A DNA stretch of 64,000 nt from an uncultured Clostridia bacterium. GTDB lineage: Bacteria; Bacillota; Clostridia; TANB77; CAG-508. The translations under genes were made by a program, and so were the position numbers. The notes under the pieces are model-generated. The model saw only the letters and a list, made by a program, of their open reading frames with translations. It made no database searches and was not told the origin of the DNA. Position 1 is the stretch's first letter. Each line of letters starts with the position of its first letter. Shown here piece after piece: positions 29,148 through 29,544 of this stretch. The stretch spans positions 37,455 through 101,454 of the forward strand of contig CAKOUU010000002.1 in the NCBI GenBank assembly GCA_934120675.1, given 5' to 3'.

Positions 29148-29544
29148 TTAGTGAGTAAGGTAGGTCTTTAGGGTTATATGTATTAAAAATTGTTAACAAC
29201 TGATTGAAGTGAAAAATAGAAAATATTATATTAAAAATTGAGGAATGTTCACGGAAAAATTTCATATGTATATATTTTTGGATTTTTTCAATTTTATTAT
29301 GCAATAATAAGAATTCCTAAATAAATTAATGGCACCCTTCCATTTTATGAACTCTTTCCATTAATTTATTAAGGAATTCTAATATTGCTTCATTTATACT
29401 TAAAAATACAAAAATATATACATATGAAATTTTTTTCTGAGTGAAAGAGGCTCAATTTTTAATAATAGATTTTCTTTTTAAACTGAATGAATATGTTAAC
29501 AATTTCTAATACATATAACCCTAAAGACCTACCTTACTCAATAA
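29148..29544. repeat. ~400-bp imperfect palindrome built of nested inverted repeats (P1)
   Basis: Outer IR ttagtgagtaaggtaggtctttagggttatatgtattaaaaattgttaaca (29148-29198) pairs with 29494-29544. Middle IR aaaaatttcatatgtatatatttttg. Inner perfect 22-bp IR gaattcctaaataaattaatgg (29311-29332 / 29358-29379). Centre ~29345. Confidence 0.8.

What the first reader, a model, noticed from the sequence alone, without database searches (positions are those of the whole stretch)
29148..29544. ~400-bp imperfect palindrome of three nested inverted repeats between the adhesin gene and the GGDEF operon
Almost the whole 558-bp intergenic region is one long degenerate palindrome with three nested IR pairs: a 50-bp outer pair, an aaaaatttcatatgtatatatttttg middle pair, and a perfect 22-bp inner pair gaattcctaaataaattaatgg, centred at ~29345. 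This is not terminator-sized. It could extrude a cruciform or a long RNA hairpin, be a MITE or IS200/IS605-type hairpin remnant, or be an operator or phase-variable switch governing the downstream c-di-GMP operon or the upstream adhesin. No recombinase is nearby.
Basis: seen in the sequence. Interest (0 to 1): 0.72.

Follow-up and report, generated by a model that had tools for sequence, protein, structure and literature searches.

The report
Invertible palindrome upstream of GGDEF operon
The 427-bp palindrome is real, and related gut Clostridium strains carry its core in both orientations, so it is most likely a flip-flop DNA switch beside a c-di-GMP signalling operon, a known kind of device with an unusual mirror-image build.

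Summary
The palindrome is real. It spans 29133-29559 (427 bp) with 66-nt outer arms, and it folds far better than shuffled sequence (z -16 as RNA, -20 as DNA). It lies between the adhesin gene's terminator-like hairpin and a conserved promoter of a cadherin-like/response-regulator-GGDEF operon.

Comparison with related metagenome assemblies gave four results:
- Five outgroup lineages lack it and show clean empty sites, so it is a clade-specific insertion.
- It is single-copy. It has no Rfam, phage or plasmid match.
- The interior between the outer arms occurs in both orientations. The window and 10 other distinct contigs have form A. A 152-kb MAG contig and L028 have full-length form B. Three further contigs have form B with a 145-bp central deletion.
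- One lineage has only the two arms, abutted at a single TGTTAACA.

Strains L012 (A) and L028 (B) differ at about 0.4% of flanking bases. On a gene tree, form B appears in three separate places. One inversion maps to a 4-nt AAGG interval in the arms.

The best reading is an inverted-repeat-flanked invertible element (inverton), probably a phase switch. No recombinase lies in the window, the promoter content is unproven, and no read-level data were available. Passive recombination in a foldback insertion remains a serious rival.

The parts
24396..29087 (+). Upstream gene: 1563-aa surface adhesin-like protein with thioester (TED), DUF11/CLIPPER and SpaA-type domains
   Evidence: ORF list; Pfam hits.
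29099..29133 (+). Terminator-like hairpin (GAGACA...TGTCTC) plus a T6 run at the end of the adhesin gene. The palindrome starts at its last T.
   Evidence: Sequence. First hairpin in the fold. The hairpin is retained in outgroups that lack the palindrome. The consensus terminator scan did not flag it.
29133..29198 (.). Left outer inverted repeat (IRL), 66 nt. The inner 38 nt, TAGGTC...GTTAACA, are nearly invariant across lineages. The outer 28 nt are more variable.
29494..29559 (.). Right outer inverted repeat (IRR), 66 nt, 91% complementary to IRL
29157..29160 (.). Inferred crossover interval AAGG in IRL. Its partner is CCTT at 29532-29535 in IRR.
   Evidence: Arm table. The right arm of L028 equals the right-arm outer part of L012 up to GAGCAAGG, followed by the left-arm inner part of L012. 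Inference from two markers.
29532..29535 (.). Partner crossover interval CCTT in IRR
29199..29493 (.). Invertible interior, 295 bp at minimum. With the inner parts of the arms the inverted block is 29161-29531 (371 bp). It is itself a 76%-identical quasi-palindrome.
   Evidence: Form B is found in L025-L027, L028 and L010+L008. It is absent in L031/L032.
29191..29198 (.). TGTTAACA at the inner end of IRL. A second copy lies at 29494-29501. L031/L032 have a single copy with no interior, so this is either a target-duplication-like repeat or a pair of deletion endpoints.
29494..29501 (.). Second TGTTAACA copy, at the inner end of IRR
29255..29280 (.). Middle inverted repeat, left copy (perfect 26-mer). 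Its partner is 29409-29434.
29409..29434 (.). Middle inverted repeat, right copy
29311..29332 (.). Inner inverted repeat, left copy (21/22 match). Its partner is 29358-29379.
29358..29379 (.). Inner inverted repeat, right copy. 29355-29420 is 80% identical to the solo copy at 31569-31634.
29333..29357 (.). Asymmetric 25-nt centre CACCCTTCCATTTTATGAACTCTTT. It serves as the orientation marker and reads as its reverse complement in form B.
29204..29276 (+). Promoter-like hexamer pairs found only in this half: TTGAAG-17-TATATT at 29204-29232 and TTCACG-17-TATATT at 29248-29276. A perfect TATAAT lies on the minus strand at 29225-29230. All of these flip with the segment.
   Evidence: They are consensus matches only and are not more frequent than in shuffles.
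29590..29618 (+). Native promoter of the downstream operon: TTTACT, 17 nt, TG-n-TATAAT. It lies outside the palindrome and is conserved in all relatives, including those without the palindrome.
29646..31525 (+). Downstream operon: a 311-aa membrane protein with a cadherin-like domain (29646-30581) and a 308-aa response-regulator-GGDEF protein (30599-31525)

Best explanation
The region is an invertible DNA element (an inverton). Two 66-nt inverted repeats (29133-29198 and 29494-29559) flank a segment of about 295-371 bp, and recombination between the repeats flips that segment. The element entered this clade as a discrete palindromic insertion of about 423 bp (29135-29557, flanked by TA). It landed between the adhesin gene's terminator-like hairpin and about 30 nt upstream of the -35 box of the conserved promoter of the cadherin-like/response-regulator-GGDEF operon.

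Shown:
- It is a clade-specific insertion.
- Both orientations exist in natural strains, including between strains about 99.6% identical in flanking genes.
- Orientation has changed at least two, probably three, times.
- Arms-only and centrally deleted derivatives exist.

Inferred:
- Inversion is catalysed by a site-specific recombinase encoded elsewhere in the genome, as RecV acts at a distance in Clostridioides difficile. The crossover falls at AAGG/CCTT, about 25 nt inside the outer ends of the arms.
- The two mirror halves are not equivalent. Only one half carries promoter-like hexamers. Flipping would therefore redirect transcription either toward the c-di-GMP operon or back toward the adhesin gene, giving phase-variable expression on top of the constitutive native promoter.
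For: 1. Insertion. The palindrome is present, 98-99% identical, in 7 same-species contigs and in L009, L011 and L012. It is absent from five outgroup lineages (L013/14, L015, L016/17, L018/19, L020/21). Their 99-227-bp spacers keep a terminator-like hairpin after the adhesin gene and the promoter.

2. Inversion.
- L028 matches L011 with the interior inverted at 332/336 positions, against 286/341 as-is.
- The MAG contig CAMBEE010000003.1 (L010+L008, 152 kb) carries the full element with both flanks in form B. It matches the window with 29161-29531 inverted at 544/558, against 476/567 as-is.
- L025-L027, from three samples and two assemblers, are form B at both junctions.

3. Recency and recurrence. 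L028 (B) and L012 (A) differ by 3/927 nt in the GGDEF gene and 4/936 nt in the cadherin-like gene. In a neighbour-joining tree of the GGDEF gene, form B appears in three separate places.

4. Crossover. The right arm of L028 is a hybrid: the right-arm outer part of L012 up to GAGCAAGG, then the left-arm inner part of L012. This places the exchange in a 4-nt interval flanked by mismatches rather than in the longer perfect stretches. That fits site-specific recombination better than homology-driven recombination. In L025 the identity between the arms also begins exactly at this point.

5. Constraint. Divergence of the palindrome from L011 is 10/422 (2.4%), against 95/1247 (7.6%) at third codon positions of four flanking genes (Fisher p = 4e-5).

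6. Asymmetry. All promoter-like hexamer pairs lie in one half and switch strand in form B.

7. Precedent. In C. difficile, invertible sequences precede pdcB and pdcC (both c-di-GMP phosphodiesterase genes), cmrRST, flgB and cwpV. The pdcB switch is 174 bp with 19-bp repeats, contains a promoter, and is augmented by a second promoter outside the switch (PMC9286219; PMC8844915; PMC7446863).
Against: - No tyrosine or serine recombinase domain was found in any of the 39 window ORFs scanned.
- The interior is 76% self-complementary, so flipping changes comparatively little sequence.
- The operon's own promoter lies outside the element and works in relatives that lack it.
- The promoter-like matches inside are weak (9 of 12) and no more frequent than in shuffles.
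- Some lineages have lost the interior (L031/32) or its central 145 bp (L025-27), so it is dispensable.
- L004 and L007 show a 5-marker conversion of the right arm's outer part to the left-arm sequence. This shows that general recombination or hairpin template switching also acts here.
- The crossover mapping rests on two markers and on the assumption that L012 represents the parent of L028.
- No read-level evidence of mixed orientations within one population could be obtained.
- The low divergence could reflect recent recombinational spread, since the intergenic region is identical in the L011 and L012 rows of alignment A2 although their flanking genes differ.
Confidence: 0.55

Rival explanations
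1. Passive foldback element. A palindromic MITE-like insertion has no regulatory role, and its long arms occasionally recombine through RecA or replication template switching. Inversions, conversions and deletions arise as neutral by-products of palindrome instability, and no dedicated recombinase is involved.
For: - It is a discrete clade-specific insertion with clean empty sites and TA on both sides.
- No recombinase lies in the window.
- L004/L007 show a gene-conversion tract of 5 clustered markers.
- L025-27 have a central deletion and L031/32 have lost the whole interior, as expected for unstable palindromes.
- The promoter-like sites are not above chance.
- The arms contain 37-45-nt perfect stretches, which are long enough for rare homologous exchange.
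Against: - The one mapped exchange lies in a 4-nt interval between mismatches, not in the long perfect stretch.
- Orientation differs between strains only about 0.4% apart and has changed two to three times in a shallow clade.
- The element is about three times more conserved than third codon positions.
- It is single-copy, unlike MITEs.
Confidence: 0.3
2. Nested mobile element. The 295-bp interior is a separate small element that inserts into, and excises from, the palindromic target TGTTAACA at the tip of an older 124-bp hairpin element, in either orientation.
For: - The interior is flanked by two copies of TGTTAACA, and L031/L032 have exactly one copy with no interior, like an empty site.
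- Three states exist: A, B and empty.
- A 52-nt relative of the inner arm, at 31573-31624, is itself present, absent or inverted among strains.
Against: - The right arm of L028 carries left-arm markers inward of AAGG, which implies exchange within the arms and not at TGTTAACA.
- The interior has no good terminal repeats in its first 13 nt.
- No other full copy exists in the window or in the MAG.
- No transposase was found.
- A slippage deletion between the two 8-mers explains L031/32 equally well.
Confidence: 0.08
3. Structural element only. The DNA extrudes a cruciform, or the transcript forms a hairpin of about 200 bp, and this acts as an insulator, a terminator or an RNase III target between the adhesin gene and the operon. 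On this reading orientation is irrelevant.
For: - The predicted stability is extreme (z -16 and -20).
- It sits exactly between a terminator and a promoter.
- Both arms of L031 share a derived TTTAG-to-TTCAG change that preserves pairing.
Against: - Most arm substitutions are one-sided and break pairs.
- Transitions compatible with wobble pairing on the plus strand number 6, against 3 on the minus strand, by my manual count from the alignments. This is not significant.
- No Rfam family matches.
- An upstream terminator-like hairpin already precedes it.
- This reading does not explain the recurrent inversion.
Confidence: 0.05
4. The 'inverted' forms are assembly artefacts caused by the palindrome.
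For: Contigs L022, L028 and L029 break inside the element, which shows that assemblers struggle here.
Against: - Form B is seen in five independent assemblies from different samples and assemblers. These include a 152-kb contig with both junctions and k141 MEGAHIT contigs, where k exceeds the 66-nt arm.
- The arms share at most about 45 identical bases, too few for a graph chimera at k of 55 or more.
- The hybrid junction in L028 would need a switch within 4 nt.
Confidence: 0.02

Closest known systems
Clostridioides difficile invertible switches (Cdi1-7): pdcB, pdcC, cmrRST, flgB, cwpV
   Same: - An inverted-repeat-flanked intergenic segment in a low-GC clostridial genome is found in both orientations.
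- It is placed upstream of c-di-GMP signalling or surface-related genes.
- The recombinase is not adjacent: RecV acts at a distance, and the pdcB recombinase is unidentified.
- An additional promoter lies outside the switch, as at pdcB (PMC9286219, PMC8844915, PMC7446863).
   Different: - The repeats here are 66 nt against about 19-21 nt, and the whole element is 427 bp against 174 bp for Cdi2.
- The invertible segment is itself a quasi-palindrome with two further nested repeat pairs.
- No sequence similarity was tested or found.
- Reversible switching within a clone and orientation-dependent expression are not shown here.
- The element is demonstrably a recent insertion, absent from sister lineages.
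Gut-microbiome invertons detected by PhaseFinder or DeepInverton
   Same: - It is an intergenic inverted-repeat-flanked segment next to cell-surface and adhesion genes in a human-gut bacterium.
- Invertons are reported to cluster near surface and adhesion functions (PMC11892184).
   Different: - Over 75% of catalogued inverton sequences are shorter than 300 bases (PMC11602134), and this one is 427 bp.
- Its interior symmetry and its arms-only and deleted derivatives are not typical features of those catalogues, as far as I know.
Bacterial MITEs with TA duplication (for example Correia elements of Neisseria and RUP of Streptococcus pneumoniae; from my own knowledge, not tested here)
   Same: - It is a non-coding palindromic insertion in an intergenic region, flanked by TA.
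- It shows presence/absence polymorphism with clean empty sites.
- It could carry promoter or terminator activity.
   Different: - It is single-copy rather than tens to hundreds of copies.
- It is 3-4 times longer.
- The whole length is self-complementary, not just the termini.
- No parent IS was found.
- TA is itself palindromic, so the duplication cannot be told apart from an extension of the repeat.
Quasipalindrome template switching and palindrome-stimulated deletion (established from E. coli genetics; from my own knowledge)
   Same: - A clustered multi-base change makes the arms perfect in L004/L007.
- A central deletion (L025-27) and a precise loss between 8-bp repeats (L031/32) are the classic outcomes.
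   Different: Those processes do not by themselves explain a reciprocal exchange mapped to 4 nt, nor the sequence conservation of the element.

Membership tests
Inverton (site-specific invertible regulatory switch) | A pair of inverted repeats flanks the segment | tested here: met
   The arms are 66 nt and 91% complementary, at 29133-29198 and 29494-29559.
Inverton (site-specific invertible regulatory switch) | Both orientations of the segment occur with the same flanks | tested here: met
   Form A is in the window, L001-L007, L009, L011 and L012. Form B is in L010+L008 (full, both flanks), L028, and L025-27.
Inverton (site-specific invertible regulatory switch) | Reversible switching within a clonal population (mixed junction reads) | not testable with these tools
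   No read data were available. The only indirect hints are contigs that break inside the element (L022, L028, L029) and A/B strains 0.4% apart.
Inverton (site-specific invertible regulatory switch) | A tyrosine or serine recombinase is responsible | tested here: inconclusive
   None was found among the 39 ORFs scanned in the 64-kb window. Crossover mapping to AAGG suggests site-specific exchange.
Inverton (site-specific invertible regulatory switch) | The segment carries a promoter or terminator whose direction matters | tested here: inconclusive
   Promoter-like hexamers lie in one half only and flip strand with the segment. They are not above the shuffle expectation, and there are no expression data.
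MITE (miniature inverted-repeat transposable element) | Terminal inverted repeats | tested here: met
MITE (miniature inverted-repeat transposable element) | Target-site duplication | tested here: inconclusive
   TA lies on both sides of 29135-29557. Because TA is palindromic it is indistinguishable from repeat extension. The 8-bp TGTTAACA flanks the interior.
MITE (miniature inverted-repeat transposable element) | Multiple dispersed copies in the genome | tested here: not met
   The arm 20-mer is found only at this locus, in two MAG species, among one genome for each of 185,579 species. One metagenome contig has it, at the same locus. There are no other copies in the window. Only a 52-67-nt partial relative exists at 31569-31634.
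MITE (miniature inverted-repeat transposable element) | Presence/absence polymorphism with an intact empty site | tested here: met
   Five outgroup lineages.
MITE (miniature inverted-repeat transposable element) | A related autonomous element that encodes a transposase | tested here: not met
   There is no match in plasmids, phages or viral contigs, and no arm pair with longer spacing in the genome scan.
IS200/IS605-derived palindromic element | Distinct subterminal hairpins at each end, no terminal repeats, and insertion 3' of a fixed tetra- or pentanucleotide | tested here: not met
   The element is one continuous palindrome with terminal repeats. No TnpA or TnpB ORF was seen nearby.
Known structured RNA (Rfam), including c-di-GMP riboswitches | Match to a curated covariance model | tested here: not met
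   There are no hits at gathering thresholds in the window. Only sub-threshold plant miRNA-type hairpin hits appear at E = 0.2-0.6.

The most novel reading that the evidence does not exclude
A 'portable' switch. A palindromic mobile insertion, possibly two nested ones, landed upstream of a c-di-GMP operon and brought its own recombination sites with it. A previously constitutive locus thereby became phase-variable. The mirror-image interior would mean that the two states differ only at a few asymmetric positions. The arm motif (TAGGTCTTTAGGG...GAAATTGTTAACA) would define a small regulon of sites, including the second palindrome upstream of mraZ at 43468-43722, all served by one distant recombinase.
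Probability: 0.2. Interest if true: 0.72.

Novelty: new variant of a known kind. Interest (0 to 1): 0.52.

Why it matters
If this is a true phase switch, it would show heterogeneity in c-di-GMP signalling and surface-protein expression in an uncultured, widespread human-gut Clostridium. That would extend a theme so far worked out mainly in C. difficile.

It would also document how such a switch is born. The empty site, an arms-only form, both orientations and a decayed form all survive in sister lineages, which is rare for invertons.

The long arms and mirror-image interior are also a practical warning. Assemblies break or fix one orientation here, so strain comparisons and repeat-based inverton finders may misjudge such loci.

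Tried and rejected
- Rfam, at gathering thresholds over the whole window and at E-value thresholds over the region, gave nothing meaningful.
- BLAST of the region against plasmids and phages gave no match.
- Viral-contig scans with the arm 20-mer and with a degenerate inner-arm pattern gave none.
- A metagenome scan for the inverted form (left flank plus reversed centre) returned zero. This is uninformative, because the control scan showed that the collection holds only one contig with the arm at all.
- A high-copy MITE is rejected.
- Small ORFs inside the element, 20-53 aa, were listed but have no support and were not pursued.
- For compensatory evolution of the hairpin, only one double change was found (L031), against many one-sided changes. 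The strand-specific wobble test, counted by hand from the alignments, gave 6 against 3, which is not significant.
- nhmmer with composition correction does not report the 31569-31634 relative that blastn finds at 80% over 67 nt. That link rests on blastn plus its own presence/absence and inverted polymorphism.
- An exact-protein look-up of the GGDEF protein, meant to widen strain sampling, returned only contigs already seen.
- No ON/OFF assignment was possible. Candidate promoters point both ways from the same half.

Full report
OBSERVATION

The palindrome is real and slightly larger than reported. It spans 29133-29559 (427 bp).
- The outer arms are 66 nt and 91% complementary (29133-29198 / 29494-29559).
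- The middle pair is a perfect 26-mer (29255-29280 / 29409-29434).
- The inner pair matches at 21 of 22 positions (29311-29332 / 29358-29379).
- The centre is an asymmetric 25-nt spacer (29333-29357).

The left half aligned to the reverse complement of the right half gives 76% identity with indels. Blocks of perfect match alternate with diverged stretches. Folding gives z = -16.2 as RNA and -20.3 as DNA, and no shuffle does as well.

The window has about 27% G+C and is clostridial in content. It includes rps/fus/tuf genes and the mraZ-mur-ftsW cluster.

CONTEXT

The element begins at the last T of the terminator-like hairpin plus T-run of a 1563-aa adhesin-like gene with TED, DUF11 and SpaA domains. 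It ends about 30 nt upstream of the -35 box of a strong promoter-like site (TTTACT, 17 nt, TGnTATAAT, at 29590-29618). That site drives a cadherin-like membrane protein gene and a response-regulator-GGDEF gene.

No Rfam family matches. There is no similarity to plasmids, phages or viral contigs. No recombinase domain was found in any of the 39 window ORFs scanned.

A CLADE-SPECIFIC, SINGLE-COPY INSERTION

Exact-protein look-ups of the downstream gene and its homologues retrieved the locus from many metagenome assemblies.

The element is present in 7 same-species contigs at 99% identity. It is also present in three further lineages, L009, L011 and L012, at 98% identity.

Five more distant lineages, with 65-74% protein identity, have only 99-227 bp between the same genes. 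They keep a terminator-like hairpin after the adhesin gene and the same promoter. The nearest empty site (L015) reads GTCTCTTCTTTTA-TGCTTAACTGTAA. The window reads GTCTCTTTTTTA[29135-29557]TATTGAATTGTAA. This is a discrete 423-bp insertion flanked by TA.

The arm 20-mer occurs only at this locus, in two MAG species, in a collection that holds one genome for each of 185,579 bacterial and archaeal species. It occurs once in the metagenome collection, at the same locus. The element is therefore not a multi-copy MITE.

THE INTERIOR INVERTS

This is the decisive result.
- In L025, L026 and L027 (three samples, two assemblers) and in L028, the sequence between the outer arms is the reverse complement of the window's arrangement.
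- L028 matches L011 with the interior inverted at 332/336 positions, against 286/341 as-is.
- The GTDB representative MAG contig CAMBEE010000003.1 (152 kb; L010+L008) holds the complete element with both flanks in the inverted form. It matches the window with 29161-29531 inverted at 544/558, against 476/567 as-is.
- Diagnostic-junction typing of all loci agrees.

L028 (form B) and L012 (form A) differ by only 3/927 and 4/936 nt in the two downstream genes. On a neighbour-joining tree of the GGDEF gene, form B sits in three separate places. Orientation has therefore changed at least two, probably three, times in a clade with a few percent divergence.

Assembly artefact is unlikely. The arms share at most about 45 identical bases, several contigs come from k = 141 graphs, and five independent assemblies agree.

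WHERE THE EXCHANGE OCCURS

In L011 and L012 the right arm carries two derived substitutions in its inner part and one in its outer part. The right arm of L028 has the outer marker of the right arm, but it has the inner markers and the adjoining interior of the left arm.

That places the crossover in AAGG (29157-29160), with CCTT (29532-29535) on the other arm. This is a 4-nt interval bounded by mismatches, not one of the long perfect stretches. In L025 the arms are identical inward of exactly this point and diverged outward.

This pattern is what site-specific recombination predicts. It is improbable for homology-driven exchange. It rests on only two markers and on one inferred parent.

OTHER STRUCTURAL STATES

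- L031 and L032 have only the two arms, joined at a single TGTTAACA, forming a hairpin of about 124 bp. In the window the 295-bp interior is bracketed by two TGTTAACA copies (29191-29198 and 29494-29501). This is either the ancestral empty site of a nested insertion or a slippage deletion. The phylogeny does not decide.
- L025-27 lack the central 145 bp or so.
- In L004 and L007 five clustered differences in the outer part of the right arm have been converted to the exact complement of the left arm. This is a conversion or template-switch event.
- Both arms of L031 share a derived TTTAG-to-TTCAG change.

General palindrome dynamics therefore act here as well.

CONSERVATION

Against L011, the element differs at 10/422 positions (2.4%). 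Third codon positions of four flanking genes differ at 95/1247 (7.6%; Fisher p = 4e-5). The conserved block, about 29000-29600, lies between two fast-evolving surface-protein regions.

This indicates either constraint or recent recombinational spread. The intergenic region is identical in the L011 and L012 rows of alignment A2 although their neighbouring genes differ.

WHAT FLIPPING COULD DO

This part is inference. The native promoter lies outside the element and is conserved in lineages without it, so the element can only modulate expression.

All promoter-like hexamer pairs lie in the half that is on the left in the window:
- TTGAAG-17-TATATT on the plus strand (29204-29232);
- TTCACG-17-TATATT on the plus strand (29248-29276);
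- a perfect TATAAT on the minus strand (29225-29230).

The mirror positions in the other half are degraded by substitutions and a 4-nt indel. In form B these sites switch strand.

Flipping would therefore redirect any such transcription either toward the operon or back toward the 3' end of the adhesin gene. The matches are weak and not enriched over shuffles, so ON and OFF states cannot be assigned.

COMPARISON WITH KNOWN SYSTEMS

The closest functional analogues are the C. difficile invertible switches.
- Two of them precede the c-di-GMP phosphodiesterase genes pdcB and pdcC.
- The pdcB switch is 174 bp, has 19-bp imperfect repeats, contains a promoter, and is helped by a second promoter outside it. 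Its recombinase is unidentified.
- RecV acts on other switches from a distance (PMC9286219, PMC8844915, PMC7446863).
- Gut invertons cluster near surface and adhesion genes (PMC11892184), and most are shorter than 300 bases (PMC11602134).

This element differs in four ways. Its arms are 66 nt. Its interior is a mirror image with two further nested repeat pairs. It is demonstrably a recent insertion. Arms-only and decayed derivatives survive.

For membership as an inverton, two defining features are met: flanking repeats, and both orientations with the same flanks. Three remain open: clonal reversibility, the recombinase, and promoter content. As a MITE it fails on copy number and on the lack of a parent element.

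VERDICT

My confidence that the segment inverts in nature is about 0.85. My confidence that this is a programmed, recombinase-driven regulatory switch is about 0.5-0.55. The main rival is passive recombination in a foldback insertion, at about 0.3.

The element is a new variant of a known kind and of moderate interest.

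Noticed in passing
window 43468-43722: A second long palindrome of 255 bp (RNA fold z = -10.9) lies between a divergent HTH_3 regulator gene and mraZ. Its central hairpin arms (43555-43592 / 43596-43637) are the best non-self match in the window to the arm motif of the first palindrome (score 18, against a background of 8 +/- 1.9 and a next-best of 15). They are arranged tail-to-tail rather than head-to-head. It could be a second site for the same recombinase, or chance similarity in AT-rich DNA.
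   Followed up: partly
window 31569-31679 (core 31573-31624): Directly after the terminator-like hairpin of the GGDEF gene lies a 52-67-nt relative of the palindrome's inner arm, 80% identical to 29355-29420. It is present in some same-species strains and absent in others (L002, L006, L012, L028, L029). In L011 a block of about 85 nt containing it is inverted and about 80% identical. It is absent from outgroups. This second rearranging spacer flanks the same operon.
   Followed up: partly
window 16646-16724, 17472-17550, 19733-19811: Three copies of a 79-nt hairpin-forming repeat (TGCACATTTT...AAAATGCACA, 72-94% identical, fold z = -4.5) lie in the spacers before and after the EF-G gene and ahead of the EF-Tu gene. 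They could be a small palindromic repeat family or a conserved operon-internal RNA element.
   Followed up: partly
window 29646-30581: The cadherin-like gene is hypervariable between close lineages. Third-position divergence is 19-25% and first/second-position divergence 6-11% against L011/L012, compared with 6-9% and below 2% in neighbouring genes. This suggests diversifying selection or allele exchange at a surface protein.
   Followed up: partly
L004 and L007 2443-3000 (equivalent to window 29541-29552): Five clustered differences convert the outer part of the right arm into the exact complement of the left arm. This looks like a conversion or template-switch event within the palindrome.
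   Followed up: yes
L029 1-33: This contig ends with 33 nt (AAATAGCATTGAAACTACTTCAAAATTATCTGA) joined to the outer part of the right arm. The 33 nt are unrelated to the palindrome and are not found in the window or in other loci. It could be a chimeric contig end or a different rearrangement at the arm.
   Followed up: partly
window 22792-24077 (minus strand) and 32515-33289: Two genes appear split into overlapping ORFs. A D-Ala-D-Ala carboxypeptidase (Peptidase_S11) is split into 22792-23619 and 23580-24077. A polysaccharide deacetylase is split into 32515-32865 and 32834-33289, and this split is also called in related contigs. These could be frameshifts or programmed features.
   Followed up: no
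window 12275-12327 and 45686-45738; 5527-5566, 40488-40527 and 61050-61089: Two further short repeat families are present. One is a 53-nt repeat, 87% identical, at two gene ends. The other is a G+C-rich hairpin of about 40 nt (AAAAAGGGATT.GAGACC.GTCCCCCAATCCC) at three sites, probably shared terminator-type hairpins.
   Followed up: no
window 33669-34370, 38612-39544, 59099-61051, 61930-62358, 61-696: Genes typical of integrated mobile elements are scattered in the window: two SSB-family proteins, a replication-relaxation protein, a topoisomerase and an AbiEii toxin fragment. No integrase was seen.
   Followed up: no
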